Shown: one piece after another, positions 1 to 29,032 of the stretch
How the letters are laid out: every line of letters begins with the position of its first letter
Position numbering within the stretch: position 1 is the first letter of the stretch
From: Euryarchaeota archaeon UBA10
GTDB taxonomy: Archaea > Thermoplasmatota > Poseidoniia > Poseidoniales > Poseidoniaceae
Direction of reading: 5' to 3'
NCBI GenBank assembly: GCA_002498185.1
Contig: DAGO01000079.1
Coordinates: 35,643 to 67,913 of the forward strand
Length of the DNA stretch: 32,271 bases
Translations under genes and position numbers: made by a program
The notes under the pieces: generated by a model
What the model was told of the DNA's origin: nothing
Database searches by the model: none
Seen by the model: only the letters and a program-made list of their open reading frames with translations

Positions 1-597
1 ACAACTCCGCCAGTCATTTTCTGAATATATGCTACGAAGTGGTTGAGGGTTGGATGCTCTGATAGAACGAAGTCCTCATCGACAGGCAGTGAGAATATTT
101 CTCGTACATCACCCATGATTTCCGCTTGCTTTACGGTATCAATTCCCAATTCGCCCTCGAGGTCCTGGTCCATCTCAATGAAATCTTCAGGATAGCCTGT
201 ATGTTTGACGACGACACCGATTAGCCTTGGCTGAATATCCTCTGCGCCACCGCTTGGGGCTTCTACTGTAGTAGCAGGTGCTGCAACCGGCGCAGGCTCA
301 GGCTCTGGTGTAGCTACCGGTTCTGGTGCTGCAACCTCGGCTGGCGCTTCTACAACAGCAGGAGCGCCTCCTTGCATCTTGTGAATGTAAGCAATCATGT
401 GATTCAACGTTGGATAATCTGATAGAACGAAATCCTCGTCAACAGGTAAACCGAATTTAGCACGGATATCTGCCATGATTTCTGCTTGCTTTACTGTATC
501 AATTCCCAATTCGCCTTCTAGGTCCTGGTCTAGTTCGACGAAGTCAGCAGGATACCCAGTATGGTTCACTACTACATCGATTACAATCTGAGTTGTA
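1..597 (-). repeat. Tandem 360-bp in-frame duplication encoding two PfaA-type carrier (ACP-like) domains separated by Ala/Pro-rich linkers
   Basis: Positions 61-235 align with 421-595 at an exact 360-nt offset (for example gatagaacgaagtcctcatcgacagg vs gatagaacgaaatcctcgtcaacagg). The core 113-170 vs 473-530 differs at 4 of 58 nt, all synonymous. Both copies encode DQDLEGELGIDTVKQAEIM. Confidence 0.9.
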
Positions 598-3500
598 TCG
601 CCTGCTGGGGCTGGCGTTGGCGCCGGTTGGCTAGCAGGGGCTGGGGCTGGCTCAGGTGCCGGTTCAGGCTCTGGAGCTTGCTCAACGATTACTGGAGCAG
701 CCTTGGTTGCTTCAGCGCTAGGAACCGCGTATTCCTCACCTTGGATTCCACCGTGGAGGTTGTTTTCTCCATCAACATATGCCACAAGCTTGTTCTTGAG
801 TACACGTAATTCGAGATTTGCTGTTCCTGCTAATGACTGATTCCAAGCAAGGAGTTTTTGTTTGTCGATTCTATCTCCAGAAAATTCGAACTTTCTAACA
901 AATGAAAGTCCAATTTGACTTCCAAATCCTGCTGCGAATCGCATTCCATACCTCAATTCAGAATAATCTCCTCCCTTCGAGAGGTTGAGGTTACCAAGTT
1001 CTGGATCTACCTCTTTGTGATTTGCAATTGGAGGTATTCTACCCGTCAACAAACCGTAGAACATCGATGCATCTTCAATTCCGACACCCATTGGATGTCC
1101 TGTGAATCCTTTGGTATTGGCGATTACAAGAGAATCTGTACTTGCACCGAAGGTCTCGCGCAATGCTTTGACCTCTGCTTGAGCTGAACCTCCTCTTGCC
1201 GGAGTGTAGGTTTCGTGAGAGAAGAACACTGTACTTGGAGCTATTTGATGTCTATCTAAGCCCCATCTCTGCTCGATTTCAGTTACGAATTCATTCACTG
1301 TTTTAGCCACATGGTCTACATCAAGTCTAGTCCCATGATATGCTGAGTTGGAAATCTTAGTGCCGAGTATCTCTGCCATAGGCTGAACGCCTCTAGCATC
1401 AGATTCTGACTTTCTCTCAACTACGAACGCTGCTGCACCCATTCCCAGAATCAATCCATTTCTTCTCTTGTCAAATGGGAGTGCTGTATCTTCGACAACA
1501 TTGCTGGTTGCGGCAGCTCCACTAGCAGCGAATCCTGAGCCAATCCACTCCCATAGGTCGTCTCCTGTCACATCATCAGCAGAGATGATTACAACTCTAT
1601 CACAACGGTCGTTAGCAAGCCAATCTTCAGCGACACCGAATGCTGCAGTTGCTGAAGCGCATGCTAGGTTGATTGTGGTGTTCGGCCCACGAATACCTAC
1701 ATGCTGTGCGAATTGGGAATGACCCATATTCAAAATCTGGAACAGATACCTTCTGTCAAATCGACCTTCTCCATCGTCGCCATCCACCTTAGCATGCTTT
1801 GCTGCCATTTGATGTCCTGCGAAACAAGAAGCGAATACAATCCCGGTTCTGTCTCGGTAAACCGAAGGCATTTGCCACGACCTAATTAGGCGCAGTCCGC
1901 CTTTACCGACCTGCTCGACCGGAGTAAGAGGGATTCCTGCATCTTTCAATGCGATTAGACCTGCTGCACATGCCAATTGAGTTGTGATATCCCAAGCGGC
2001 TGCAATCTTTGCTTCGATTCCAAATTCTTCTTCAGGGTCAAAGGCTGACATTACTCCTGCAAGTTGAGGTATGTCGCCAAATTCCTTAGCTGCATCCATT
2101 CCTACGCTGCCATCTCTTCCTTTGATTAGTCGCACGATATTCTTGTCAAGCAAACGTTGCTTGTACTCATCGCTGACTTCGCTAATGCAGGTCTCGCCTC
2201 GAACTAATTTCTCGAAATTGCCCTCATCGAAAACCCTCTCTCCACCTGGTAAGCCGAGAGAGATACCAGTGATTACGAATGGATCATCGTCTCTATCATC
2301 CAATTTTGTGGCTCTTGACTTGGCTCCTGTAATCGGGGCGGATGTAATCCATCGAGTGATATCCCCCGGAGTCTTTGCCACTGTAATATCCCAATCAGGG
2401 TCTGTGCTACATCTAGCATGAACTGTCGTGATGACATCTTGCACCTGTTGGTCGCTCATTCCCAAAACAGCACGCATGTCGACATTGCCTTGACAGAATT
2501 TCGCTGGATACCCTGTTTGAGCGGCAATCAATTCACCGACTAAGGCTTTCTTTGCTGCATCTGGGTCAACGTATGTGTCGCTGGACTTTACAACGGTCTT
2601 AGTAACAACTTCTCCACCCTTTGAGGGTAGAGGTTTACTTCTTTCTCTTAGAGGAGTTGTAGGCTTAGATACTGAGCTAGATGCTTCAATAGGGCCTGCT
2701 CGGAAAGCCTCGGTCAAGTGAGGGCTATCTCTTCCCGGCCACTGCGGTGGCCTTCCCGCAAGAGCAAGAGTTCCTAGAGCAGACAAGAAGGTCGCAATTC
2801 CTCCAGCCTTAGGATGGTTAGTCATCACAGGTAGGGCAGGCCTACCTTCGAGGATTTGCGATGCGAAAACTGTAAGCGCTCTTTTCGGTCCAACTTCCAA
2901 GAATATTCTCGCACCTGCGTCATACATCGAATTGACTTGAGTTGTCCACTCAACACTGGATGCCATTTGCGGTGCCAATTTTGAGAGTGCTGCGGCCTTA
3001 GAATCGCCGCCATCATCCATAGGATACCAGCCACCATCTACGTTGCTCGTAATCGGAATCTTTGGCCATTTAACGTCGAGATTCTCAAGGAATCTTCGTA
3101 GCGGTTCGTTTGCCGGCGCAACGATTCTCGAATGGAATGCATGGCTTGTTGCCAAGGCTACTGTCTGGAATCCTTCTGCCTCGAAACGGGACATCGCCGC
3201 CTTGACAGGTTCTGTTTCTCCAGCGATAACTGTCATCTTTGGAGAGTTCTTGTTCGCAGCGATAACATAGCCATCAACTTCCTCGATAATCTCAGCAATT
3301 CTCTCGTAAGGAGCGGTGACGCTAGCCATCAATCCCTTGTCATCAATTTCGACGCTGCCCATTTCAGTACCACGGGCGGCTGCGGCTCTCAAAGCGCCAT
3401 CCATGTCTAGGATTCCTGCACTCATCAATGCAGCATATTCGCCTAGGCTGTGTCCAGCAACCATGTCTGGCTTGTGTCCGTGAGCATTCAGTGCGGCTTC

Positions 3501-5618
3501 TATTGCTAAATCCGCAGTAAGCATTGCTGGCTGTGTATACTCGGTTTGCTTGAGCTTGTGCTCAGCCTCTTTCTTTTCTTCATCACTGAGATTTTCTCTC
3601 AGAACGAATGATGACAGGGTTTCTCCATCTAGGACATCAACCATAGTGATGTCAGCCTTGTTCCAAACTTCGCCAACTCCCGTATATCTTGAATTCAAAT
3701 CATTGGTCATGCCAACATATTGACTACCTTGCCCGGGATACATGTGAGCGACTTTTGCTTCGCTTGGAAGTGCAGGGTCGTTGCTAATTAGAATGCCTTG
3801 ACTCATCAAGAAGCCCCATTTCCCAGGGTCGTCCATCGCCTTGAGTGCCAAGTCCTTACGCTTGTTGAACTCAGCCCAACTAGTCGCTGTAATCGCCATT
3901 CTTAGCGAATCGCTGGTATCATAGGACCAGTGTTCAGGTAGTGTGAATGAAAGACGCATTCCTTTTGGGTCATCGTCGAAATTACTTCCCGAAAATGTAA
4001 TTCCGGCCAATTTGGATTTGACGGTTTCAACAGAGTCACCAGACAGCAATAGTAGGCCGCCTTCAATCGCTTTGAGTTCTTCATGTGTCATTGTTGGTTT
4101 AGAAGATGAAGTCGTTGCTGTTCCAGCATATGCATCCCATCTTCCATCCCACTCCGATACCAAATCAGCGTGATAATCAGGAACATACTCTTCCAATGTT
4201 ACGTGGAAATTTGTTCCACCGAAACCGAATGCGGAGATACCTGCTCTACGTGGATTGGTTTCTGGTTTAGGCCAATCCAATGCTTTGGTTGGAACGAAGA
4301 ATGGAATTTCGCCCCATTCTACGGTAGGATTAGGCGTTTCGAAACCTGCGCTCGGCGGGATTGTAGCGTGGTAAACCGCGTTACATGCCTTCATTATTCC
4401 AGCAATTCCTGCTGCAGCCTTCAAGTGACCAATCTGGCTTTTCACTGAACCAACAGCGATGTGATCTCCGCCATCGAGACCGGTCCAAAGCAGGGAAAGT
4501 GTCGATAATTCTGTTGCGTCACCCACCTTCGTTGATGTGCCGTGAGCCTCAACCAACTCAACGGTTGATGGCTCATATCCTGCTTGCGCATAGGCTCTGC
4601 TTACAGCTTGAACCTGTCCTCTCTGACTCGGTGCGGTGATTCCCTTGCCTCTGCCATCAGAAGAGCCTCCGACTCCACGAATAACCGCCTTGATATCATC
4701 ACCGTCATCGATTGCATCGGACAATCTCTTGAGAAGAAGTACACCTGCTCCTTCACCCATTACGAATCCGTTTGCTCTTGCATCGAATGGAGTTGAATGA
4801 GTGGGAGAAAGAGCGCCAATCGCACTGAACTTAGCATAGGTTGGTGCCTCCATGCAGCGGTCGGTCGCTCCGGCTAGCATAGTGTCGACTTGACGTGTTT
4901 GGAGTAGACGGCATGCATCTAGCAATGCCGCCATCGAAGATGCACATGCTGCATCTGTGGAATAATTTGGACCTTGTAAATCAAGCAAATTAGCGACTCG
5001 GCCGCTGACTACATTTGCTAATTCTCCCGGCATAGTGTCCTCATCAATGCGTGGAGTGCCTTCGCAGATTTTCTCCACCATAGCGTCTGCTTGCTCAGGA
5101 GTTACGCCATTGTCGATAGCGATTTTTCTCATTTCGGCACTGAATACTCGAATGTTTGATTCAGAACGATTCTCACCGCCCAGTGCATTAGCAAAAATCA
5201 CGCCTGTGCGAGCTCTATCGAGCGTTTTTCCGCCTTCGCCATAACCTGCGTTATCGATTGCATCTGCGGAAACCGTGACCGCCCACAACTGGCATGGGTC
5301 GATTTGAGGTAGAGTCCCCGGGGGCTGCCTCCATCTGCGCCAATCGAACTCATAGCCGTCTACAAATCCTCCAATTTTGGAGTACGTCTTACCTTCGCTG
5401 ACATTCCCAGGTGCGCCGTTTTCCCAGTAAATATCTGGATCCCAGCGGTCTTTCGAGACTTCCTTAATCGAGACATGAGCATCGATTATGTTCTGCCAAA
5501 ACTCCTCGATGGAGGTTGCATCTGGCATCAGTGCTGCCATTCCAATAACCGCAATCGGCTCGAATGGAGATTGATTCAATCCGTCTACTTGTTTTCCGTC
5601 TGCAGTGGTAATCGTCAT
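1..5618 (-). CDS. Type I polyketide/PUFA-synthase-like megasynthase, N-terminal >=1872 aa (KS-AT-carrier-like-KS-carrier-carrier...); 3' end runs off the left window edge
   Basis: My own translation of the minus frame from ATG 5618-5616 (MTITTADGKQVDGLNQSPFEPIAVIGMAALMPDA...) stays open to position 1. It is absent from the ORF track because there is no stop in the window. KS motifs: TDAACASS, EAHGTSTKVGD, GFGGTNFH. AT motifs: YPGQGSQY, GHSLGE, SHAFHS. Second KS: INLACASAT, NTKGFTGHPMG. Two PfaA-like carrier repeats follow. A GGGGGAG SD-like element sits 7 nt upstream of the ATG, inside the last codons of fabI. Confidence 0.85.
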   Translation of the reverse strand, partial: MTITTADGKQVDGLNQSPFEPIAVIGMAALMPDATSIEEFWQNIIDAHVSIKEVSKDRWDPDIYWENGAPGNVSEGKTYSKIGGFVDGYEFDWRRWRQPPGTLPQIDPCQLWAVTVSADAIDNAGYGEGGKTLDRARTGVIFANALGGENRSESNIRVFSAEMRKIAIDNGVTPEQADAMVEKICEGTPRIDEDTMPGELANVVSGRVANLLDLQGPNYSTDAACASSMAALLDACRLLQTRQVDTMLAGATDRCMEAPTYAKFSAIGALSPTHSTPFDARANGFVMGEGAGVLLLKRLSDAIDDGDDIKAVIRGVGGSSDGRGKGITAPSQRGQVQAVSRAYAQAGYEPSTVELVEAHGTSTKVGDATELSTLSLLWTGLDGGDHIAVGSVKSQIGHLKAAAGIAGIMKACNAVYHATIPPSAGFETPNPTVEWGEIPFFVPTKALDWPKPETNPRRAGISAFGFGGTNFHVTLEEYVPDYHADLVSEWDGRWDAYAGTATTSSSKPTMTHEELKAIEGGLLLLSGDSVETVKSKLAGITFSGSNFDDDPKGMRLSFTLPEHWSYDTSDSLRMAITATSWAEFNKRKDLALKAMDDPGKWGFLMSQGILISNDPALPSEAKVAHMYPGQGSQYVGMTNDLNSRYTGVGEVWNKADITMVDVLDGETLSSFVLRENLSDEEKKEAEHKLKQTEYTQPAMLTADLAIEAALNAHGHKPDMVAGHSLGEYAALMSAGILDMDGALRAAAARGTEMGSVEIDDKGLMASVTAPYERIAEIIEEVDGYVIAANKNSPKMTVIAGETEPVKAAMSRFEAEGFQTVALATSHAFHSRIVAPANEPLRRFLENLDVKWPKIPITSNVDGGWYPMDDGGDSKAAALSKLAPQMASSVEWTTQVNSMYDAGARIFLEVGPKRALTVFASQILEGRPALPVMTNHPKAGGIATFLSALGTLALAGRPPQWPGRDSPHLTEAFRAGPIEASSSVSKPTTPLRERSKPLPSKGGEVVTKTVVKSSDTYVDPDAAKKALVGELIAAQTGYPAKFCQGNVDMRAVLGMSDQQVQDVITTVHARCSTDPDWDITVAKTPGDITRWITSAPITGAKSRATKLDDRDDDPFVITGISLGLPGGERVFDEGNFEKLVRGETCISEVSDEYKQRLLDKNIVRLIKGRDGSVGMDAAKEFGDIPQLAGVMSAFDPEEEFGIEAKIAAAWDITTQLACAAGLIALKDAGIPLTPVEQVGKGGLRLIRSWQMPSVYRDRTGIVFASCFAGHQMAAKHAKVDGDDGEGRFDRRYLFQILNMGHSQFAQHVGIRGPNTTINLACASATAAFGVAEDWLANDRCDRVVIISADDVTGDDLWEWIGSGFAASGAAATSNVVEDTALPFDKRRNGLILGMGAAAFVVERKSESDARGVQPMAEILGTKISNSAYHGTRLDVDHVAKTVNEFVTEIEQRWGLDRHQIAPSTVFFSHETYTPARGGSAQAEVKALRETFGASTDSLVIANTKGFTGHPMGVGIEDASMFYGLLTGRIPPIANHKEVDPELGNLNLSKGGDYSELRYGMRFAAGFGSQIGLSFVRKFEFSGDRIDKQKLLAWNQSLAGTANLELRVLKNKLVAYVDGENNLHGGIQGEEYAVPSAEATKAAPVIVEQAPEPEPAPEPAPAPASQPAPTPAPAGDTTQIVIDVVVNHTGYPADFVELDQDLEGELGIDTVKQAEIMADIRAKFGLPVDEDFVLSDYPTLNHMIAYIHKMQGGAPAVVEAPAEVAAPEPVATPEPEPAPVAAPATTVEAPSGGAEDIQPRLIGVVVKHTGYPEDFIEMDQDLEGELGIDTVKQAEIMGDVREIFSLPVDEDFVLSEHPTLNHFVAYIQKMTGGV
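885..2295 (-). other. Ketosynthase domain 2 (divergent, catalytic residues apparently present)
   Basis: DDPFVITGISLGLPGG...GPNTTINLACASATAAFG (Cys codon 1659-1661)...FFSHETYTPARGGSAQAE...ANTKGFTGHPMGVGIED...AAGFGSQIGLSF. Confidence 0.7.
2340..2545 (-). other. Degenerate carrier-protein-like domain between AT and KS2
   Basis: QTGYPAKFCQGNVDMRAVLGMSDQQVQDVITTVH aligns by eye with the downstream repeats (TGYPADFVELDQDLEGELGIDTVKQAEIM). The signature reads LGMSD instead of LGIDS/T. Confidence 0.4.
2830..3760 (-). other. Acyltransferase (malonyl-type) domain of the megasynthase
   Basis: HMYPGQGSQYVGM; PDMVAGHSLGEYAALMSAG (Ser codon 3447-3449); ATSHAFHSRIV (HAFH motif, usually associated with malonyl specificity). 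Confidence 0.8.
4190..5567 (-). other. Ketosynthase domain 1 of the megasynthase
   Basis: PIAVIGMAALMPDA...STDAACASS (Cys codon 4944-4946)...VEAHGTSTKVGDATE...VKSQIGHLKAAAG...GISAFGFGGTNFHVTLEEY. The Cys-His-His triad is readable. Confidence 0.8.
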
Positions 5619-5622
5619 CTGA

Positions 5623-6417
5623 TTACTCCCCCATAATGCTCGATGGGACCATCGTTATCGAATATCCAGCATCAACATGGATACACTGTCCCGTCACTCC
5701 CGCTGAAAGTGGGCTGGCCAGCCAAGTAGTGCAACCTGCGACGTCAGACTGGGTTACATTTCTGCGAAGTGGTGAGTTTGCTGCAACGTGGTCGAGGATA
5801 TTATCGAATCCAGGAATTCCGCTTGCTGCAATGGTTCGAATGGGCCCACTGGAGATGGAATTGACACGGTGTCCTTCTGGGCCTAAGTGGCACGCTAATT
5901 CTCTAGTCCAGCACTCTAGAGCTGCTTTTGCCATGCTCATTATTCCGTAAGAAGGAACGTGCCTTGTTGATGCAGCGTAGGTCAATGTGATTGTTGATGA
6001 GCCAGGATTTAGGTGTGGCAATGCGAACTTCAAGCATCTTTGCAAAGAGTTAGCAGAGATTGTGTAAGCAGTATTGATGCTCTCATCGTCGACGAAAAGG
6101 ATCGGTCGGTCAAAGCATTCCCTTGGTGCAAATCCGATAGCGTGAATCAGAATGTCTGCTTTTAGCCCGGGATTTTCTTTGCTGAAAGCATCGAAGAATT
6201 CCTTGGTATCCGCATCAGAAGCGACGTCTAGAGGATAGAAACCGGCTATTGCTGGGAGTTTGTCTTTGAGTTGGAATACTCGTGACATGAAACGCTTCTG
6301 ATAACCCAAGTACAGAGTCACCCCTGCTTCGGCCAAACTTTGGCAAATTGCCCAAGCGATTGAGTCTTCACTGGCCACTCCGAAAACAAATGCAACTTTA
6401 CCTTGTAAACCAAGCAT
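5623..6417 (-). CDS. fabI: Enoyl-[acyl-carrier-protein] reductase, SDR-type (FabI family)
   Basis: MLGLQGKVAFVFGVASEDSIAWAI (FabI N-terminal glycine-rich pattern) and SYGIMSMAKAALE (Y-x6-K catalytic pattern). I prefer the ATG at 6417 over the track's GTG at 6426. The stop lies 4 nt before the megasynthase ATG. Confidence 0.85.
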   Translation of the reverse strand: MLGLQGKVAFVFGVASEDSIAWAICQSLAEAGVTLYLGYQKRFMSRVFQLKDKLPAIAGFYPLDVASDADTKEFFDAFSKENPGLKADILIHAIGFAPRECFDRPILFVDDESINTAYTISANSLQRCLKFALPHLNPGSSTITLTYAASTRHVPSYGIMSMAKAALECWTRELACHLGPEGHRVNSISSGPIRTIAASGIPGFDNILDHVAANSPLRRNVTQSDVAGCTTWLASPLSAGVTGQCIHVDAGYSITMVPSSIMGE

Positions 6418-6423
6418 GATTAG

Positions 6424-6444
6424 CACCTACCCTTAGGGTAGGTG
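6424..6444 (-). promoter_or_regulatory. Perfect 9-bp hairpin whose 3' arm is the SD-like element of fabI
   Basis: Plus strand is cacctaccc-tta-gggtaggtg. The mRNA sense reads CACCUACCC UAA GGGUAGGUG CUAAUC AUG. Confidence 0.4.
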
Positions 6445-6533: not shown

Positions 6534-7667
6534 TCACAAATCTTCAAAATCGAAATCGTCCATATCGTCAAGGTCGTCGAAGTCCAAATCATCTTCAAAC
6601 TCGTCTTCAATTTGCTCTTCAGGAATCCCTGCCTTTTTCATCATCCTTCTTGCCGCTTTGTTAGCCTTCTTTTCAGCCTTGGCAGCCTTCTTGGCTTCCT
6701 TTGCAGCAATCTTTTGCTTACCTGCTTTCTTGGTTAGTCTGGAGATGATTACCAGTAGTAGAATTACTCCGACTAAACCGCCGCCGCCCATTGCAATCAT
6801 TGCAATGCTGTCTTGATCCATTGAATCTAGGCCAATTGACCCTCCACCACCGCTAGAAGCTGCGACTACAACCCTAACCGAAACTTCGCTTGCTTCGGCT
6901 TCAGTGTCTAGTTTCGAATATGCTCGCAACTCAACTTGAATCGAAATTTCCTCAGATGAATCTGATGGCGCCTCAAGGATAATTGTTCCTTGGTCAGAGG
7001 ATGCACCCGGGTTCACGGTTGCACGGAAAAATGGGTCAGAAACAAATTTGAATCCTGCATCTTCAATCTGCTGAAGATTTAGGATTTCAACTTCCAAATT
7101 GTCGACTCTGTTACCATCGTTGAAAATGGTGAATTGAAGCGTTGCTTCTCCGCCTGCTTCGATGTTTCTAGTGGAAGGATTCGAGACTTCCAAGTCCATT
7201 CTTGAGTAAGGTAATGAGCTTACAGAACCGCCGGTTTCAGATGTTGAGCCTGCTTGTCCAAGCGGTATCGTGAATGGGTCACTTCCGATTGTAACACTGG
7301 TAACTGTTGCAGTAATGTTGTAATCTTCACTCAAAACTTCAATTCTAGGCGATGCGGAAAATGTCGCCATGAAGGTTGCGTCTTCTCCAGCACCGAGTTC
7401 AACCGAAGACTCAGACAAGGATAATGAGAAATCATTCCCGTCTAAATTGCTGTCTAAATCTACATTTTGAGGAAATGATCCTGTATTTGTCACGGTACAT
7501 GTGACTGAAACCGGTGCGTTTTGTTCTGGGTGAACATTGATTTTTATTGTGGATTCGTTACACTCAACCTCTACGCCAACAGGTGTTAGTTGCGCTTGTG
7601 TATTCATCGGAGTGAACAAACATAACACTAGAATGGACACTAAAAACACCCTAGTTACGGTTTGCAT
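6534..7667 (-). CDS. Secreted, C-terminally TM-anchored surface protein (CARDB/S-layer-like beta-rich ectodomain) with a Lys-rich then strongly acidic cytoplasmic tail
   Basis: Signal-peptide-like N-terminus MQTVTRVFLVSILVLCLFTPMNTQAQ. Repeated ...T(V/I)xNxG...DL patterns. TM segment GGGGLVGVILLLVIISRL. Tail KKAGKQKIAAKEAKKAAKAEKKANK...DEFEDDLDFDDLDDMDDFDFEDL. Confidence 0.7.
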   Translation of the reverse strand: MQTVTRVFLVSILVLCLFTPMNTQAQLTPVGVEVECNESTIKINVHPEQNAPVSVTCTVTNTGSFPQNVDLDSNLDGNDFSLSLSESSVELGAGEDATFMATFSASPRIEVLSEDYNITATVTSVTIGSDPFTIPLGQAGSTSETGGSVSSLPYSRMDLEVSNPSTRNIEAGGEATLQFTIFNDGNRVDNLEVEILNLQQIEDAGFKFVSDPFFRATVNPGASSDQGTIILEAPSDSSEEISIQVELRAYSKLDTEAEASEVSVRVVVAASSGGGGSIGLDSMDQDSIAMIAMGGGGLVGVILLLVIISRLTKKAGKQKIAAKEAKKAAKAEKKANKAARRMMKKAGIPEEQIEDEFEDDLDFDDLDDMDDFDFEDL

Positions 7668-7669
7668 CG

Positions 7670-7688
7670 TCCCTCCCGAAGGGAGGGA
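7670..7688 (-). promoter_or_regulatory. Perfect 8-bp hairpin sequestering the GGGAGGGA SD of the surface-protein gene
   Basis: Plus strand is tccctccc-gaa-gggaggga. The mRNA sense reads UCCCUCCC UUC GGGAGGGA CG AUG (ATG at 7667). It lies between the TatD stop (7715) and the next start. Confidence 0.45.
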
Positions 7689-7714
7689 TAGTCATGAACT
7701 CTTTGGGCGATGAA

Positions 7715-8557
7715 TCACTGACTACCGTATATTCTGTCTGGCAAATCTTTGTGGCAATTGTAAAGGATGTCCTCATCTAATCCGGCTGCTAATAATTGCC
7801 GAGTGCGCTTTGGTACAGTCTTTGGCCCGAGAACAGCACCCGGTCTTCTGGGGTCGTCCATGTAATCGGTCTCCAGCATAAATCCGTGAGATGATGATTC
7901 GAAGGTATTCATCAATTCCTCAATTGATCCACTGCCCGCTAAAACACTAGGAGTTAGACCATGAGTGTATGACTCATCTACCCTTGGAGGTGCGTAATGT
8001 CTGACTAATTTCTCCCTTGCAAGTCCCGCTTTGTCTGCCATTCGAGCCAACTCACCATAGGTCTCATCTGATTCCCCTTCTACGTGTAGTTGCAAAGGAA
8101 TGTTCTCCTTGGCTGCCAACTGCATGGTTTCCAAAAGCAACGTGTTTGAGCGCTGCCAAATTTCATCTGAAACCGGCCAATGAGGCCTTCCGACTTCTCC
8201 AATTCCATGGGCCAGGCCTTCGTGAACATAATGCAGAGCAGTTTCAATGCTATCCCAATAATTCTCCTCGGCCCTATCGCCTAAAGACTCGAATTGGTGA
8301 GCGAATGCTGCAGGATGTGGCCCCAAAATAACACGGACTCCTAGTCCCAATTCACGAACTTGTTCTGCCATTGCAATTGTATTCGCATAAGCTTCAGAAT
8401 GACCATCCCTAGTCACTGGTGGAGATGCGAAATCGGGACAGTGGACGAGAACTAAATCAGTCCCACCTACTCGCAAAAAATCCCTTGCTGCATCCAAAAA
8501 TCTGCCATTCCGATTAAGATGGAAATGGTCGTCTAGGATTGGTCCATTCCAATCCAT
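7715..8557 (-). CDS. TatD-family metal-dependent hydrolase (amidohydrolase fold)
   Basis: N-terminal ILDDHFHL (the TatD D-x-H-x-H pattern), then internal LQLHVEGE and HYAPP segments typical of the family. ATG at 8557 is preferred; the GTG at 8566 would overlap the upstream stop. Confidence 0.65.
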   Translation of the reverse strand: MDWNGPILDDHFHLNRNGRFLDAARDFLRVGGTDLVLVHCPDFASPPVTRDGHSEAYANTIAMAEQVRELGLGVRVILGPHPAAFAHQFESLGDRAEENYWDSIETALHYVHEGLAHGIGEVGRPHWPVSDEIWQRSNTLLLETMQLAAKENIPLQLHVEGESDETYGELARMADKAGLAREKLVRHYAPPRVDESYTHGLTPSVLAGSGSIEELMNTFESSSHGFMLETDYMDDPRRPGAVLGPKTVPKRTRQLLAAGLDEDILYNCHKDLPDRIYGSQ

Positions 8558-20630: not shown

Positions 20631-21971
20631 TCATCCCAACAAGTCTTGGTGCTCATCGATGTAGGCGATTGTAATATCCCCTGCAAGGAAATCCTTCTCA
20701 TCCATTATTCTGCGATGTAGTGGAATTAGATGGTCCACACCAGTGATTATGGTTTCATCTAATGCTGTTCTCATTCTACGGATTGCTGAATCTCTATCCG
20801 GCCCCCAAGCGAGTAGCTTTGCAAGTAGACTGTCGAAACATCCCGGCATTTCATAACCCGGGTGTGCATGTGTATCACACCTGATTCCGAATCCAGATGG
20901 GAAGTGGCATTCCCACAACCTGCCTGGAGATGGAACGAAATTGGTGGTGTCTTCTGCATTGAGCCTACATTGTATTGCGTGGCCTCTGATTGTAATATCA
21001 TCTTGAGTTAGAGGTAGGCTTTCTCCCTGAGCAACTCTAATTCCTAATTCTACGAGATTGTATCCGGTAATCAATTCTGTAACGGTATGCTCAACCTGTA
21101 CCCTTGGATTCACTTCTAAGAAGTAGAAATCTCCATTCTTGTCTCGTAAGAACTCGAATGTTGCTAGACCTTTGTAGCCCACTGATTCTGCACCTGCACA
21201 AACCAATGCTCCAACTTCTGCTCTCTTTTCGTCGGTTAGCCAAGGACCTTCTTCGACCAGTTTCTGGTGGCGACGCTGAATTGAACAGAATCTTTCACCA
21301 AAGTGAATCGCCTTTTCTCCATCTGCTAGGACTTGGAACTCGACGTGTTGTGCACCTTCGATGTATTTCTCAACAAATACTCTATCATCGCCAAACGCTG
21401 ATTTTGCACGGCCCTGACATAGTTTGAGTGCACCTTCAAACTCGTTCGCTGCATGAACGATTTGCATTCCGATTCCACCGCCACCTGCGGCTGCCTTGAT
21501 GATTACCGGATAGCCGATTTCATCAGCTAATTCACTGGCAACTTCTGCAGAGGAAATCGGTTCGCTACTACCCTTTGCAGTAGGTAGGCCTGCGGCTTCC
21601 ATAGCCGCACGGGCTTCGATTTTGTCACCTAGTAAAGTAATGACATGCGAAGCTGGTCCGATGAACGTAATTCCCTCTTCCTCCAAACGCTTGACGAAAT
21701 GTGCATTCTCTGCTAGGAACCCGTATCCTGGGTGGACTGCGTCGCATTCAAGGTCCTTAGCAGCCTGTACAACAGCCTCGATATCAAGGTAAGAATCCAA
21801 TGGATTTGACCTCATTATTGGATAAGCAATGTCAGCCATTCTAACGGGTAGAGATAATCGGTCTTCTCTGCCGTGAATAATTGCAGCCTCAATACCCATG
21901 TCCCTGAGTGTTCTTAGAATCCTCAAAGCGATTTCTCCACGGTTCGCAATTAGCACACGCTTGAATGCCAT
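20631..21971 (-). CDS. accC: Biotin carboxylase (ATP-grasp subunit of an acyl-CoA or pyruvate carboxylase)
   Basis: MAFKRVLIANRGEIALRILRTLRDMGIEAAIIH, GYGFLAENAHF, YPVIIKAAAGGGGIGM, FLEVNPRVQVEHTVTE. No BCCP or carboxyltransferase gene is adjacent. Confidence 0.9.
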   Translation of the reverse strand: MAFKRVLIANRGEIALRILRTLRDMGIEAAIIHGREDRLSLPVRMADIAYPIMRSNPLDSYLDIEAVVQAAKDLECDAVHPGYGFLAENAHFVKRLEEEGITFIGPASHVITLLGDKIEARAAMEAAGLPTAKGSSEPISSAEVASELADEIGYPVIIKAAAGGGGIGMQIVHAANEFEGALKLCQGRAKSAFGDDRVFVEKYIEGAQHVEFQVLADGEKAIHFGERFCSIQRRHQKLVEEGPWLTDEKRAEVGALVCAGAESVGYKGLATFEFLRDKNGDFYFLEVNPRVQVEHTVTELITGYNLVELGIRVAQGESLPLTQDDITIRGHAIQCRLNAEDTTNFVPSPGRLWECHFPSGFGIRCDTHAHPGYEMPGCFDSLLAKLLAWGPDRDSAIRRMRTALDETIITGVDHLIPLHRRIMDEKDFLAGDITIAYIDEHQDLLG

Positions 21972-22130
21972 GTTAGACCCCAAACCTAACTATTCTAAGA
22001 TGAAAGCGGTTGGTTTGGGTTCGATAAATGCGATTTTTTACGCCGAAAAATGGAAACAAACTACCTTTTTCCGCCGAACTTAGGAACGATTTGCCGTTCT
22101 TCTTATAGGATACCCAAACAATTGAACAAT

Positions 22131-24718: not shown

Positions 24719-25125
24719 AATAAAATGCTATTAAAATAACATTATTTTCTATGTATTTTTTCAGTTTGTTGATTTTCGAGCGAAAATAAGAAATTTGATC
24801 TTGAACAAAATCAAATCCAATTCTCAATTTTCCCGTTTCAAATTTATTTTGAACAAAATATTTTTTGAAAAACTGAGTTTTTTCTTCTCGGCGATAAATA
24901 TTTTTTATTTCGGCGAGCTAGTCAAAATTGTGCGGCACAGTATGTTCTTTTTATAACATAAAGCGTAAAATTATGCTTCCCTTTTTATACCTCCAATTGA
25001 AATCGATTTAGTAAGCAAATCTAGGTCTTTACCACCTAGTTCGGGATTAGCCTTATATGGTGGACTCGGACTCCCCGTAGGCATCACGCATGGTGGGGCG
25101 CGGGTAGGCAACAAACAAAGCAAAA
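24719..25125. other. Putative replication origin region: AT-rich unwinding-element-like stretch with several short repeat families, immediately upstream of orc1/cdc6
   Basis: This is the longest and by far the most AT-rich intergenic region in the window. TTGAACAAAAT occurs twice (24801-24811, 24849-24859). Related TTGAAA-type elements are at 24836-24845 (reverse), 24865-24872 and CTCCAATTGAAAT at 24991-25003. TTCGRGCGA-type repeats are at 24775-24783, 24885-24894 and 24908-24917. GGTGG-containing repeats lie at 25030-25100. TATA-like ccctttttatac is at 24980-24990. Confidence 0.45.
24756..24761 (+). terminator. Oligo-T tract downstream of the MBL-fold gene
   Basis: T6 run (atgtattttttcag) about 40 nt after the stop. 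Archaeal termination typically uses oligo-T. Confidence 0.3.
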
Positions 25126-26999: not shown

Positions 27000-28016
27000 T
27001 TAGTGTCCATTTCGACCTAACAAAGCATCTAGGTATCCTAACAGGATTCCTTGCCATAGTACAAATGACCATGAAATAAGTACGAATGTGGCGTAGGGTT
27101 TTCTCTTAGGTAAATCGCTTCTGAAAAATGATATTATCCAAAATAATGGTACTATTGAAATCAATAGTACCTCTCGTGAAAGTGAATAATACAAGGATTC
27201 AGGATTGACCTGGTCATAAGAGAGCAGGTTGTTGATGTACTCAAACAATCCAAATCCTCCGAGCATCATCAACGGAATCATCCAAAGAACAATCCAAGAC
27301 GAACCAATGAAATCATGTCTTATTCCCTTGTATCGACGATGTATTCTAACGTGGGCTCTGGCATCTCTCTTTCTCTTATTCAAGAATCTACGCAGGCCTG
27401 TTTCCGGAACGTGATTAACAACCGCCTCTGGCGTGTAGACAATGGTACCTCCTTCCTGAACTAACTTCAGTGAAACCTCCATGTCCTCTGCATGATACCA
27501 CGAAGGGTCAAACCCGCCAATATCCAATAACTTCTCCCTGTGGAACATAGAACATGGACCGTTAGCTAGTTTGGTACGGCGTGGTCGTGAACGGTACTTT
27601 GATTCGATTTCGATAGACCTGATCTTGGAAATTACGTCATCTGAGCGACCGAAAATTGTTCTTCCAGTGACTGCAACTACTTCTTCCCCTCCTCTAGAGT
27701 CTGAGGATTCCAACATTCGCTGTATCCAATCCGCTTCTGGCCTTACATCGATATCAGTAATTGCGAACCATTCACCTTTCGATGCCTCTAATGCAGCCAT
27801 CCTACCCGCCGATAGGCCAAGAGCATCTTGGGTGATGACTGTTACCAAATCATGATTCGACCATTCCTCAGCTTTCTGCTTACCGCCATCAATCGAGCCA
27901 TCATCTACCAGAATAATTTCCAATGGTGAATGGGTTTGGTTAACTAGAGATTCCATACAACCGTCAATCCATTCAACGCCATCTCTGACGCAAACGGCTA
28001 CCGAAACCAGAGTCAA
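27000..28016 (-). CDS. Family 2 glycosyltransferase with C-terminal TM helices
   Basis: VSVAVCVRDGVEWIDGCMESLVNQTHSPLEIILVDDGSIDGG (GT-A N-terminal pattern with DDGS), a later ITDIDVRP acidic motif, and a hydrophobic C-terminal third. It appears to start at a TTG overlapping the upstream stop (TTGA), preceded by GAGGTGAGGGA. Confidence 0.75.
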   Translation of the reverse strand: MTLVSVAVCVRDGVEWIDGCMESLVNQTHSPLEIILVDDGSIDGGKQKAEEWSNHDLVTVITQDALGLSAGRMAALEASKGEWFAITDIDVRPEADWIQRMLESSDSRGGEEVVAVTGRTIFGRSDDVISKIRSIEIESKYRSRPRRTKLANGPCSMFHREKLLDIGGFDPSWYHAEDMEVSLKLVQEGGTIVYTPEAVVNHVPETGLRRFLNKRKRDARAHVRIHRRYKGIRHDFIGSSWIVLWMIPLMMLGGFGLFEYINNLLSYDQVNPESLYYSLSREVLLISIVPLFWIISFFRSDLPKRKPYATFVLISWSFVLWQGILLGYLDALLGRNGH

Positions 28017-29002
28017 TCCCTCACCTCAAATCTAGAAAGCAATCCTCTGCATTCTTCCTTGGCGTCCAATGTTGTTATGCGTAAAACAACTCCAGTATTT
28101 GGCTGACCATATACGATATTGGTTCCTAGAGGTGCCAGTAAATGGACGATTATCGGGGCCAAGTCTTCTTCTCCTTCGACTTGAATACAAGTTGTTTGGT
28201 CATTTTGTAGCGCAGACCGAATTGCATCAATTAAGGATGGAGTAATCTGTCCTGCTGGATTATCGGCGTTAAGCAACACATCAAAATCGCTCAAATTGAC
28301 TTTCTCATCTAACTCTACGCGCTTGGTCATCCCGTCGATAATTGCAATATCCGCCACTACACCCATCTCTAGCAATGTTGCTACGCAAACATCTCCAACA
28401 GCAACGATACCACCTGGTGCAATACTTTCCATTGCTGCGGACATCGCAACTTCTGGTGAATCTTCAGGTCCTGTAAACAAATCTCCGCTAGGCTCTTTCA
28501 ACTCCGCATCTAATCCTCGGTGGAAGTGATGTGTTTGATTTGACTGCTCCCCGCTCAACCATTGCTTCCCATCACAATCGATCAAACCTGCTCTGATTCT
28601 AGAACTAGAGATAATTCCACCTACTTCATCTAAGCTGTGCTGTACCTCAATAATTTCTAGAGGCAGTAATCCATTTGCAAGTCGAATTTCATTAATTCTC
28701 TGACAATTTCCCAATGTTTCAGGAGTACAGATGATGCTGTCACAATCTTTGCGACTAGGTGCAGGGCCGTAATTGTCCTCTAGTTCATGGGTTGTGATTC
28801 TTTCATCTGCCCATGCGATAATAGCCTCTCTTCTATCTTCAAAGGATTGTAAAATAGGAGATTTTGCCGCCGACATGGCGTCATTTGTGATCCAAACTTC
28901 GACCAATTCTGCGGAATCCAGTGCCGCATTAAGTAAAGATTTGTGACCTTGGTGAAATCTGTCGAAAGTGCCGCCAACTAAGCAGCGCTCCAACTTCGCC
29001 AT
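28013..29002 (-). CDS. Fusion of archaeal-type phosphopantetheine adenylyltransferase (PPAT) and DUF359 GTP-dependent dephospho-CoA kinase (last two CoA-biosynthesis steps)
   Basis: N-terminal half: CLVGGTFDRFHQGHKSLL (cytidylyltransferase HxGH) ...ICTPETL...RINEIR. C-terminal half: AVGDVCVATLLEMGVVADIAIIDGMTKR...NPAGQIT...VEGEEDLAPIIVHLLAP...IVYGQPNTGVV (the DUF359/COG1909 pattern). ATG at 29002 (MAKLERC) is preferred to 29032. Confidence 0.75.
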   Translation of the reverse strand: MAKLERCLVGGTFDRFHQGHKSLLNAALDSAELVEVWITNDAMSAAKSPILQSFEDRREAIIAWADERITTHELEDNYGPAPSRKDCDSIICTPETLGNCQRINEIRLANGLLPLEIIEVQHSLDEVGGIISSSRIRAGLIDCDGKQWLSGEQSNQTHHFHRGLDAELKEPSGDLFTGPEDSPEVAMSAAMESIAPGGIVAVGDVCVATLLEMGVVADIAIIDGMTKRVELDEKVNLSDFDVLLNADNPAGQITPSLIDAIRSALQNDQTTCIQVEGEEDLAPIIVHLLAPLGTNIVYGQPNTGVVLRITTLDAKEECRGLLSRFEVRD

Positions 29003-29032
29003 GTGCCTAACTGAGTTTGGATGGCTATTCAA

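What the first reader, a model, noticed from the sequence alone, without database searches (positions are those of the whole stretch)
1..597. Both PfaA-type carrier repeats carry Thr at the expected phosphopantetheinyl-Ser position (GIDT instead of GxDS)
The PUFA-synthase ACP signature, as I remember it, is TGYP..ML.L..D.EADLGIDSIKRVEI. Both repeats read TGYP(A/E)DF(V/I)E(L/M)DQDLEGELGIDTVKQAEIM. The Thr codons are ACA (495-497) and ACC (135-137), so the residue is maintained through different codons. The third, degenerate carrier-like domain reads LGMSD, with a Ser (codon 2454-2456) displaced by one position. A Ser-to-Thr change at the attachment site is generally regarded as poorly or not modified by PPTases; this is my recollection for E. 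coli ACP S36T. Two readings follow. Either a Thr-accepting PPTase exists, or these are non-canonical carrier-like domains, for example docking or non-covalent CoA-thioester handling. The second reading would fit published proposals of ACP-independent fatty-acid synthesis in archaea.
Basis: partly seen in the sequence, partly recalled or inferred. Interest (0 to 1): 0.7.

Follow-up and report, generated by a model that had tools for sequence, protein, structure and literature searches.

The report
Threonine-type acyl carrier domains in archaea
A marine archaeon's giant fatty-acid/polyketide-type enzyme has threonine where all characterised acyl carrier proteins have the cofactor-bearing serine; this holds across a large family that always comes with its own cofactor-attaching enzyme, so the threonine is probably a working, undescribed attachment site.

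Summary
Both carrier repeats read LGIDTVKQAEIM, with Thr codons at 495-497 (ACA) and 135-137 (ACC). That Thr aligns with the phosphopantetheinyl-Ser of solved ACPs and starts helix II in a confident ACP-fold model.

It is not decay.
- In about 80 Poseidoniales (Marine Group II) loci chosen by their second ketosynthase, not by the carrier, all 231 intact LGIDTV[KR] motifs (window included) have Thr. All four Thr codons are used.
- In 143 representatives of the wider family (at most 50% mutual identity), 403 of 437 carrier domains have Thr and 26 have Ser. One Ser-only protein is a canonical PfaA caught through its ACPs.
- Ser-type and mixed proteins are each most similar to Thr-type ones.

An Sfp-type PPTase gene with intact catalytic motifs follows the synthase in every one of the 61 archaeal loci with enough downstream DNA. 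It is fused to the synthase in 47 of 150 representatives. The architecture matches the published, uncharacterised "Type R secondary lipid synthase".

Best explanation: Thr carries the 4'-phosphopantetheine arm, added by the dedicated PPTase. This is inferred, not shown. The "ACP-independent or docking domain" reading is not supported. None of the ten open-literature searches found a report of a Thr attachment site.

The parts
3..5618 (-). Partial CDS (1872 aa, C-terminus cut by the window edge) of a PfaA-like megasynthase: KS, AT, decayed carrier, KS2, carrier 1, carrier 2 and onward. In relatives the protein continues with a third Thr carrier, KR and DH, about 2,900 aa in all.
   Evidence: ORF and Pfam. 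L004 continues with ACP x3, KR and DH carrying HxxxGxxxxP. L089, 90% DNA identity to the window, has a third LGIDTVK carrier; best NCBIfam model is TIGR02813 PfaA, below its cutoff.
4185..5561 (-). KS1 (ketoacyl synthase N- and C-terminal domains plus C-terminal extension), with the DAACASS active-site Cys motif.
   Evidence: PF00109, PF02801 and PF16197 on residues 20-478. Sequence.
2847..3743 (-). Acyltransferase (malonyl-CoA:ACP transacylase-like) domain with the GHSLGE motif.
   Evidence: PF00698, residues 626-924. TIGR00128 fabD, 2e-59.
2346..2567 (-). Decayed carrier-like domain between AT and KS2 (TGYPAKF...LGMSD). Asp occupies the attachment position and Ser (2454-2456) lies one residue earlier.
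   Evidence: the motif in other Poseidoniales is LGMSD, LGMNE or LGMDD (L001 reads LGMSE), so that Ser is not conserved. The same position is an intact LGIDTV[KR] or LGVDTVK carrier in bacterial relatives (L003; P0155, P0156 and P0212).
825..2282 (-). KS2, the second ketosynthase-like domain (the 'CLF' of Type R clusters). It keeps Cys-His-His: ACAS, SHETYT, GFTGHPMG.
   Evidence: weak second PF00109 stretch and PF08545. C208, H356 and H396 are invariant in alignment A1. It was used as a carrier-independent probe.
363..599 (-). Carrier domain 1 (ACP fold). Attachment-position Thr codon ACA at 495-497, motif LGIDTVKQAEIM.
   Evidence: AF2 model with pLDDT 92.1, helix II starting at T35. Foldseek top hits are all ACPs, TM 0.79-0.85.
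240..362 (-). Ala/Pro/Glu-rich flexible linker between carrier 1 and carrier 2. A similar linker lies at 600-824 between KS2 and carrier 1.
   Evidence: translation (APAVVEAPAEVAAPEPVATPEPEPAPVAAPATTVEAPSGG).
3..239 (-). Carrier domain 2 (ACP fold). Attachment-position Thr codon ACC at 135-137. The window ends just after this domain.
   Evidence: second PF00550 stretch.
5623..6426 (-). FabI-type enoyl reductase (SDR). Its stop codon lies 4 nt upstream of the synthase ATG, so it is probably the trans-acting ER of the system.
   Evidence: PF13561, 1.3e-66. FabI models up to 2.9e-63, below the equivalog cutoffs. Same position in L001.
20631..21983 (-). Biotin carboxylase (acetyl-CoA carboxylase component). 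Possible malonyl-CoA supply. Not adjacent to the synthase; the link is inferred only.
   Evidence: ACC genes sit inside related clusters in L002, L084, L086, L087 and L088.
28013..29032 (-). Fusion of a cytidylyltransferase-like domain (read here as PPAT) and DUF359 (read here as the archaeal dephospho-CoA kinase family). By that reading it makes CoA, the donor of the phosphopantetheine arm. The link to the synthase is inferred only.
   Evidence: PF01467 and PF04019. The PPAT and dephospho-CoA kinase assignments are from my own knowledge of these families.

Best explanation
The two domains (three in the complete protein) are genuine tandem acyl carrier domains of a bacterial-type, iteratively acting PfaA-like synthase of the 'Type R secondary lipid synthase' kind: KS, AT, decayed carrier, KS2, ACP x3, KR, DH. 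The attachment residue for 4'-phosphopantetheine is threonine instead of serine.

A dedicated Sfp-type PPTase is encoded immediately downstream of the synthase. That gene lies beyond the left edge of this window and is seen in all relatives. It transfers phosphopantetheine from CoA to the Thr hydroxyl at the N-terminus of helix II.

The holo-carriers then shuttle malonyl and growing acyl thioesters between KS, AT, KS2, KR and DH in cis, and the upstream FabI-type enoyl reductase in trans. The product would be a fatty-acyl lipid or hydrocarbon precursor.

Shown: sequence, fold, conservation, Ser/Thr interchange, PPTase linkage and PPTase catalytic motifs. Inferred: that Thr is actually modified, the trans-ER role of FabI, and the product.
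For: 1. Thr sits exactly in the Ser column of solved ACPs. It is at the first turn of helix II in a pLDDT-92 model whose structural neighbours are all ACPs. The flanking recognition features are kept: Gly-x-Asp before it and a hydrophobic residue after it.

2. Strong purifying selection for Thr. The motif LGIDTV[KR] occurs 231 times in the window plus 83 fetched loci, about 80 of them Poseidoniales species-representative loci picked by KS2 similarity. All four Thr codons are used and no Ser appears at that column, although Ser is one substitution away.

3. Family-wide. An exhaustive HMMER search found 1053 representatives at E<=1e-30. Among the best 150, 143 carried at least one carrier domain: 134 proteins are Thr-only, 5 are Ser-only (one of them a canonical PfaA matched through its ACPs alone), and 2 are mixed. 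By domain, 403 have Thr and 26 have Ser out of 437.

4. Only Ser and Thr alternate at this column in intact tandem carriers. Ser-type and mixed proteins are each most similar to Thr-type ones: P0128 to MGII P0121 and to P0122; P0143 to P0167; P0231 carries S, T, S in one Heimdallarchaeal protein. This points to a conserved hydroxyl nucleophile.

5. By contrast, the decayed inter-KS carrier of MGII has lost the hydroxyl: Asp or Glu at the site, and a neighbouring Ser that is not conserved.

6. Dedicated PPTase. It lies on the same strand about 2.7 kb after the last carrier in all 61 Poseidoniales loci with enough downstream DNA. It is also present in bacterial L002, L003 and Nonomuraea L084 and in Ser-type L085. 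It is fused to the synthase C-terminus in 47 of 150 representatives, and the Thr-type fused proteins contain no GxDS carrier motif anywhere.

7. The PPTases look active. Pfam PF01648 plus an N-terminal PPTase domain match. His, Asp and the W..KE..K residues are kept in 103-104 of 104, and the Glu of the Asp-x-Glu motif in 102 of 104. The AF2 model (pLDDT 84.7) matches only Sfp-type PPTases: AASDHPPT, Sfp, PptT, PptAb and PcpS.
Against: - There is no direct evidence of modification: no mass spectrometry and no proteome data.
- The one experimental precedent I could cite is negative. E. coli ACP S36T cannot be phosphopantetheinylated and is non-functional (PMC3340395). I know of no documented O-phosphopantetheinyl-threonine.
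- Comparing PPTases from Thr-type clusters (104) with those from Ser-type or mixed clusters (5, plus Sfp) showed no residue that marks a Thr-adapted active site.
- The PPTase gene is not in this window. It is inferred from relatives at 81-90% DNA identity.
- A PPTase target encoded elsewhere in the genome cannot be excluded with these tools.
Confidence: 0.7

Rival explanations
1. The Thr domains are never phosphopantetheinylated. They would be pseudo-carriers: structural spacers, docking modules, or binders of free acyl-CoA. The synthase would work on CoA thioesters, in line with proposals of ACP-independent fatty-acid synthesis in archaea.
For: E. coli ACP S36T is not modified. From my own knowledge, archaea generally lack ACP and AcpS, and ACP-independent synthesis has been proposed (Lombard et al. 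2012; Dibrova et al. 2014; neither paper is held). No Thr-adapted signature was seen in the PPTases.
Against: - A catalytically intact PPTase is strictly linked or fused, with no Ser carrier in the same protein.
- Conservation at that column is restricted to Thr or Ser, whereas a truly decayed carrier in the same protein drifts to Asp or Glu.
- The tandem, linker-separated array is typical of working PUFA-synthase ACPs.
- The family is mostly bacterial and occurs in organisms with normal ACP biology, such as Nonomuraea, so it is not an archaeal adaptation.
Confidence: 0.12
2. The PPTase is real and active, but its substrate is something other than the conserved Thr. It could be another residue of these domains or a carrier protein encoded elsewhere. 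Thr would then be conserved for a structural reason, such as capping helix II.
For: Thr and Ser are both good N-cap residues for helices. The rest of the genome could not be searched here.
Against: - In the sequences inspected, no other Ser of the domain is conserved. The Ser of 'VLSD' is Ala or Arg in relatives.
- The conserved Thr residues of TGYP and PTL are, from recollection, also present in canonical Ser-type PUFA ACPs.
- In 47 fused proteins the PPTase sits in the same polypeptide as the Thr carriers.
- The PPTase gene overlaps the synthase stop codon in L004.
- Asn, Asp and Gly are also good N-caps, yet never occur at this position in intact tandem carriers.
Confidence: 0.08
3. Thr carries a different group from canonical phosphopantetheine. 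Examples would be a modified CoA-derived arm, or direct O-acylation as an oxyester carrier.
For: Nothing specific. It is only that Thr is unprecedented as a phosphopantetheine site.
Against: The linked enzyme is an ordinary Sfp-type PPTase by sequence motifs and fold. KS, AT, KR and DH chemistry needs a long thiol arm and thioester activation. No other modifying enzyme is conserved in the operon.
Confidence: 0.05

Closest known systems
Type R 'secondary lipid synthase' gene cluster (Shulse & Allen 2011, PLoS One 6:e20146; PMC3098273)
   Same: One pfaA homolog with KS-MAT-CLF-ACP(3-6)-KR, followed by a downstream PPTase gene. An ACC gene is sometimes inserted. Distribution is patchy and suggests horizontal transfer. 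The product is unknown. The MGII locus has the same order, with three carriers, and the PPTase directly downstream.
   Different: That paper lists only bacteria (Koribacter, Solibacter, Elusimicrobium, Roseiflexus). The words 'archaea' and 'threonine' do not occur in it. Here the hosts are Poseidoniales, with further family members in other Thermoplasmatota and in Heimdallarchaeota. The 'CLF' keeps Cys-His-His. A decayed extra carrier sits between AT and KS2. A FabI-type ER gene precedes the synthase. I did not retrieve the named Type R genomes, so shared ancestry is inferred from architecture only.
PUFA synthase PfaA with tandem ACPs (TIGR02813; motif LGIDSIKRVEI)
   Same: Best-scoring NCBIfam model. 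Shares the KS-MAT start, tandem ACPs separated by Ala/Pro linkers, KR and a PS-type DH at the C-terminus, the TGYP...(E/D)LGID(S/T)(I/V)K motif frame, and a dedicated Sfp-type PPTase (PfaE).
   Different: The score is 646.8, below the cutoff of 1010.1. A second KS lies inside the same protein. No PfaB, PfaC or PfaD partners were found in the window or the loci examined, and a FabI-type ER is present instead. The carriers read GIDTVKQ, not GIDSIKR. A canonical PfaA in the same search (P0222) has LGIDSIKR nine times.
Canonical acyl carrier proteins (PF00550), such as E. coli AcpP
   Same: Four-helix ACP fold, TM 0.79-0.85 and rmsd 1.4-1.9 Å to solved ACPs. The Pfam hit is above threshold. The Gly-x-Asp-[hydroxyl residue]-hydrophobic motif sits at the start of helix II.
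   Different: The attachment residue is Thr. In E. coli AcpP the S36T change abolishes modification and function (PMC3340395).
Sfp-type (group II) phosphopantetheinyl transferases (Sfp, PptT, AASDHPPT, PfaE)
   Same: The partner enzyme is about 230-250 aa with two PPTase half-domains. It has PF01648 plus an N-terminal PPTase domain, conserved His, Asp-x-Glu and W..KE..K motifs, and exclusively Sfp-type structural neighbours.
   Different: It is very divergent in sequence: no PDB hit by phmmer, and it only just passes the Pfam cutoff in L004 (26.3 against 25). Its presumed substrate hydroxyl is on Thr.

Membership tests
Acyl carrier protein / PP-binding domain (PF00550) | Profile match above Pfam's gathering score | tested here: met
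   55.5 bits against 20.8, two stretches; three stretches in the complete relative L004.
Acyl carrier protein / PP-binding domain (PF00550) | Small helical-bundle ACP fold with the attachment residue at the N-terminus of helix II | tested here: met
   pLDDT 92.1, helix II begins at residue 35 (the Thr); the top 50 Foldseek hits are ACPs, TM 0.73-0.85.
Acyl carrier protein / PP-binding domain (PF00550) | Invariant Ser in the (D/H)S(L/I) motif as the phosphopantetheine acceptor | tested here: not met
   Thr occupies the Ser column in both repeats. Thr is found in all 231 motif instances across the window and related loci.
Acyl carrier protein / PP-binding domain (PF00550) | Covalent 4'-phosphopantetheine on the domain | not testable with these tools
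   Needs intact-mass or MS/MS analysis of the protein co-expressed with the cognate PPTase.
PUFA synthase PfaA (NCBIfam TIGR02813) | Whole-protein score at or above the curated cutoff | tested here: inconclusive
   646.8 bits for the window's protein, against a cutoff of 1010.1. That protein is truncated, and the KR-DH part from L001 adds 194 bits. The complete relative was not scored as one protein.
PUFA synthase PfaA (NCBIfam TIGR02813) | KS-MAT-ACPn-KR-DH order, with PfaB, PfaC and PfaD partners | tested here: not met
   an extra carrier remnant and a second KS lie between MAT and the ACPs. The neighbours are FabI and a PPTase. No PfaB, PfaC or PfaD homologs were found in the window or the loci examined.
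Type R secondary lipid synthase (Shulse & Allen 2011) | Single pfaA homolog with KS-MAT-CLF-ACP(3-6)-KR | tested here: met
   KS, AT, (decayed carrier), KS2, ACP x3, KR, DH in L004 and most Poseidoniales loci. Definition quoted.
Type R secondary lipid synthase (Shulse & Allen 2011) | PPTase gene directly downstream of the pfaA homolog | tested here: met
   found in all 61 loci with at least about 3.5 kb downstream; the PPTase ORF 7061-7783 overlaps the synthase stop at 7089 in L004. It is not visible in the window itself, which is truncated.
Type R secondary lipid synthase (Shulse & Allen 2011) | KS phylogeny grouping with the named Type R genomes (Koribacter, Solibacter, Elusimicrobium, Roseiflexus) | not tested
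Sfp-type (group II) PPTase (partner enzyme in relatives) | Two PPTase half-domains, PF01648 match, and conserved His, Asp-x-Glu and W..KE..K motifs | tested here: met
   PF01648 at 26.3-48.6 bits against a cutoff of 25, plus 4PPT_N or AASDHPPT_N. His and Asp 104/104, Glu 102/104, Lys-Glu and Lys 103/104; only Sfp-type PPTases as structural matches, probability 1.0.

The most novel reading that the evidence does not exclude
O-(4'-phosphopantetheinyl)-threonine would be the native, obligatory attachment chemistry of a large carrier-domain family marked by GxDT(V/I)KQ. The family has more than 1000 clusters at 50% identity and spans Actinomycetota and other bacteria, the abundant marine Poseidoniales, other Thermoplasmatota and Heimdallarchaeota. 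A co-inherited clade of Sfp-type PPTases that accepts a secondary alcohol would install the arm. That would be a post-translational modification and a carrier/PPTase pairing not described so far. It would also mean that Marine Group II archaea run a complete carrier-dependent, bacterial-type fatty-acyl synthase.
Probability: 0.62. Interest if true: 0.85.

Novelty: new variant of a known kind. Interest (0 to 1): 0.72.

Why it matters
Serine as the universal phosphopantetheine acceptor is textbook biochemistry. From my own knowledge, it is also built into annotation rules: the PROSITE PS00012 pattern, UniProt site annotation, and 'inactive ACP' calls in genome-mining tools. All of these would score this whole family as dead.

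If Thr is modified, several things follow:
1. A new protein modification and a PPTase clade with altered nucleophile specificity would be defined.
2. A potentially orthogonal carrier/PPTase pair would become available for protein labelling and pathway engineering.
3. Hundreds of 'Type R' clusters of unknown product would be recognised as functional.
4. Among the most abundant planktonic archaea, and some Asgard archaea, would be shown to own a complete carrier-dependent fatty-acyl synthase with its own activating enzyme. That bears on the archaeal/bacterial 'lipid divide' and on claims that archaeal fatty-acid synthesis is ACP-independent.

The question is directly testable with one co-expression and mass-spectrometry experiment.

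Tried and rejected
- **Literature.** They covered Poseidoniales/MGII with ACP, PKS or ketoacyl; the strings 'LGIDT', 'GIDTV' and 'GxDT'; Thr replacing Ser in carrier proteins; PUFA synthase with threonine; and archaeal or Asgard PKS with PPTase. None returned a report of a Thr attachment site or of this archaeal synthase. Only the S36T precedent and, by direct DOI look-up, the Shulse & Allen Type R description were useful. The Beld 2014 PPTase review, Lombard 2012 and Dibrova 2014 are not held.
- **PPTase against PDB by sequence.** phmmer found nothing. The fold comparison was needed instead.
- **Residues separating PPTases of Thr-type and Ser-type clusters.** None were evident, and only 4-5 Ser-type sequences were available.
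- **Taxon names for bacterial Thr-type proteins.** Most clusters carry no name. Only Nonomuraea (through the plasmid collection), Heimdallarchaeota and Thermoplasmatota could be named.
- **Length bias in the search for homologous proteins.** With carrier queries it returned only short fragments: contig ends or frameshifted long-read calls in the repeat array. It is also biased by its 5-mer prefilter towards GIDTV. I therefore did not use those counts as the conservation test and relied on KS2-selected loci and the exhaustive HMMER search.
- **Rejected: lineage-specific decay.** Thr uses all four codons in 231 motif instances with no Ser, whereas the truly decayed inter-KS carrier drifts.
- **Rejected: sequencing error.** The same residue appears in hundreds of independent assemblies.
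- **First pass of the KS2 identity comparison.** One search was mis-registered and was redone.
Full report
**What is in the window**

The window is archaeal. It encodes a TATA-binding protein, Cdc6/Orc1, and a fusion of a cytidylyltransferase-like domain with DUF359. Its closest relatives in species-representative genomes are all Poseidoniales, the Marine Group II archaea.

A minus-strand ORF starts at ATG 5618 and runs off the left end of the window (1872 aa). Pfam and NCBIfam give this order: KS (residues 20-478), AT (626-924), a weak second ketosynthase-like region (KS2), and two PP-binding stretches at the end. The best family model is PfaA (TIGR02813), at 646.8 bits against a cutoff of 1010.1. 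A FabI-type enoyl reductase gene ends 4 nt upstream of the synthase start codon.

**Checking the observation**

Both carrier repeats read TGYP(A/E)DF(V/I)E(L/M)DQDLEGELGIDTVKQAEIM. The Thr codons are ACA at 495-497 and ACC at 135-137. The third, degenerate domain reads LGMSD, with Ser at 2454-2456.

phmmer against solved structures aligns 'GIDT' with the 'G(V/A/I)DS' of PigH, S. aureus ACP, spinach ACP and others. So Thr occupies the phosphopantetheinyl-Ser column.

An AlphaFold2 model of carrier 1 has pLDDT 92.1, and helix II begins at this Thr. Foldseek returns only ACPs, with TM 0.79-0.85 for the leading hits.

**Is it decay?**

No. I selected relatives without reference to the carrier. An alignment of the KS2 domain was used to scan one genome per GTDB species. 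At least 566 loci matched, and the best 80 were all Poseidoniales.

- A carrier HMM whose seeds included both Ser- and Thr-type sequences found 228 LGIDTVK and 1 LGIDTVR in the fetched loci. No Ser occurred at the attachment column. There were usually three tandem carriers per protein.
- A separate motif count found LGIDTV[KR] 231 times in the window plus the 83 loci. The Thr codons are ACG 107, ACC 46, ACT 39 and ACA 39. Thr is therefore kept by selection even though Ser is one substitution away.
- The carrier remnant between AT and KS2 does drift, reading LGMSD, LGMNE or LGMDD and LGMSE in L001. Its off-register Ser is not conserved. In bacterial relatives that position holds an intact GIDT carrier.

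The window's nearest relatives (L089, 90% DNA identity; L004, 96% KS2 protein identity) show the missing C-terminus. It consists of a third LGIDTVK carrier, KR, and a PS-type DH with HxxxGxxxxP.

**The wider family**

An exhaustive HMMER search of 1.84 billion cluster representatives, using KS2 plus the two carriers as query, gave 1053 hits at E<=1e-30. Among the best 150, which are at most 50% identical to each other, 143 carried at least one carrier domain:

| Carrier type | Proteins |
|---|---|
| Thr only | 134 |
| Ser only | 5 |
| Mixed Ser and Thr | 2 |
| Neither | 2 |

By domain, 403 have Thr and 26 have Ser out of 437. One of the Ser-only proteins is a canonical PfaA with LGIDSIKR nine times, matched through its ACPs only.

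By KS2 identity, each Ser-type or mixed protein is most similar to Thr-type proteins:
- P0128 (Ser) is closest to the Poseidoniales representative P0121 and to P0122.
- Heimdallarchaeal P0143 (Ser) is 73% identical to P0167 (Thr).
- Heimdallarchaeal P0231 carries Ser, Thr and Ser in successive carriers of one protein.

So Ser and Thr, and nothing else, interchange at this column in intact tandem carriers. That pattern fits an essential hydroxyl nucleophile.

Named hosts of the Thr type include Nonomuraea gerenzanensis, Heimdallarchaeota and other Thermoplasmatota. The Nonomuraea cluster runs acyl-CoA dehydrogenase, synthase with LGVDTVKQ, single-chain ACC, PPTase.

**The PPTase**

In a syntenic 867-kb Poseidoniales contig the gene order is FabI, then the synthase (split by long-read frameshifts), then a PF01648 protein.

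- A homolog lies on the same strand about 2.7 kb after the last carrier in all 61 Poseidoniales loci with enough downstream DNA. Every locus without it is truncated.
- In L004 its ORF (7061-7783) overlaps the synthase stop codon at 7089.
- Bacterial relatives L002, L003 and L084, and the Ser-type L085, have it too.
- In 47 of 150 representatives it is fused to the synthase C-terminus. The Thr-type fused proteins contain no GxDS carrier motif anywhere.

These PPTases pass Pfam PF01648 and also have an N-terminal PPTase domain. An AF2 model (pLDDT 84.7) matches only Sfp-type PPTases: AASDHPPT, Sfp, PptT, PptAb and PcpS.

A conserved, apparently active, dedicated PPTase whose only available carrier domains bear Thr is the core of the argument that Thr is the acceptor.

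**Caveats**

- Nothing here shows the modification.
- E. coli ACP S36T cannot be modified and is non-functional (PMC3340395).
- I found no residue that separates PPTases of Thr-type clusters from those of Ser-type clusters.
- The PPTase gene lies outside this window.
- The rest of the genome could not be searched for another carrier protein.

**Comparison with what is known**

The architecture and the downstream PPTase match the 'Type R secondary lipid synthase' of Shulse & Allen 2011: KS-MAT-CLF-ACP(3-6)-KR plus a PPTase, found in Koribacter, Solibacter, Elusimicrobium and Roseiflexus, with an unknown product. That paper mentions neither archaea nor threonine.

The protein is PfaA-like but not a PfaA. 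Its score is below the cutoff, it has an internal second KS that keeps Cys-His-His, it has no PfaB, PfaC or PfaD partners in the window or the loci examined, and it has a FabI-type ER instead. Ten open-literature searches found no report of a Thr phosphopantetheine site or of the MGII synthase.

**Verdict**

The 'lineage-specific decay' and 'ACP-independent docking domain' readings are not supported.

The best-supported explanation, at about 0.7, is a family-wide Thr-type acyl carrier domain activated by a co-inherited Sfp-type PPTase. Poseidoniales appear to have acquired it as part of a bacterial-type operon. It is a new variant of a known kind. It is of high interest because it contradicts a textbook invariant, and one co-expression and mass-spectrometry experiment can test it.

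Noticed in passing
window 825-2282 (-): The second KS-like domain, called 'CLF' in the Type R description, keeps the full Cys-His-His triad (ACAS, SHETYT, GFTGHPMG). These residues are invariant in archaeal and bacterial relatives. It may therefore be an active second ketosynthase rather than a chain-length factor.
   Followed up: partly
window 2346-2567 (-); L003:7113-7500: The carrier-like remnant between AT and KS2 is an intact GIDT carrier in many bacterial relatives (for example LGIDTVRQ in L003) but has decayed in Poseidoniales. This is an internal example of what real decay of this domain looks like.
   Followed up: yes
window 9909-15719 (-): A 1936-aa ORF with no Pfam or NCBIfam match. 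It is conserved next to the same locus in the 867-kb relative L001 (1952 aa). Function unknown.
   Followed up: no
window 6534-7667 (-): A 377-aa protein that matches NCBIfam 'choice-of-anchor T' (2.3e-30). It sits between the TatD-like gene and fabI, in the same place as a similar-sized gene (376 aa) in L001.
   Followed up: no
window 28013-29032 (-): Fusion of a cytidylyltransferase-like domain (read here as PPAT) with DUF359 (read here, from my own knowledge, as the archaeal dephospho-CoA kinase family). By that reading the last two steps of CoA synthesis are in one protein.
   Followed up: no
window 24719-25125, upstream of Cdc6/Orc1 (25126-26385 +): The roughly 400-bp spacer before the cdc6/orc1 gene contains short T- and A-rich direct and inverted repeats. 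It could be a replication origin, but the repeats are weak and nothing was shown.
   Followed up: partly
P0143, P0160, P0231 (Heimdallarchaeota); L086: Asgard (Heimdall) archaea encode members of the same megasynthase family with Ser-only, Thr-only or mixed Ser/Thr carriers. All three proteins have a PPTase domain near the C-terminus. They are a natural test bed for Ser/Thr interchange.
   Followed up: partly
L002, L084 (Nonomuraea gerenzanensis 5987771-6013366): The actinobacterial-type version of the cluster runs acyl-CoA dehydrogenase, synthase, single-chain multidomain acetyl-CoA carboxylase, PPTase. Aromatic ammonia-lyase genes lie near the cluster in L002 and L003.
   Followed up: partly
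L001, L089 and many P00xx fragments: Assemblies break or frameshift inside the tandem carrier array, and the window itself ends there. Many database 'acyl carrier proteins' of 80-340 aa are therefore fragments of these megasynthases, not free-standing ACPs.
   Followed up: yes
L085:5703-6542: The PPTase of the Ser-type relative closest to MGII has Thr in place of the otherwise invariant His of the IS.GH motif. This is a single case of unknown significance.
   Followed up: no
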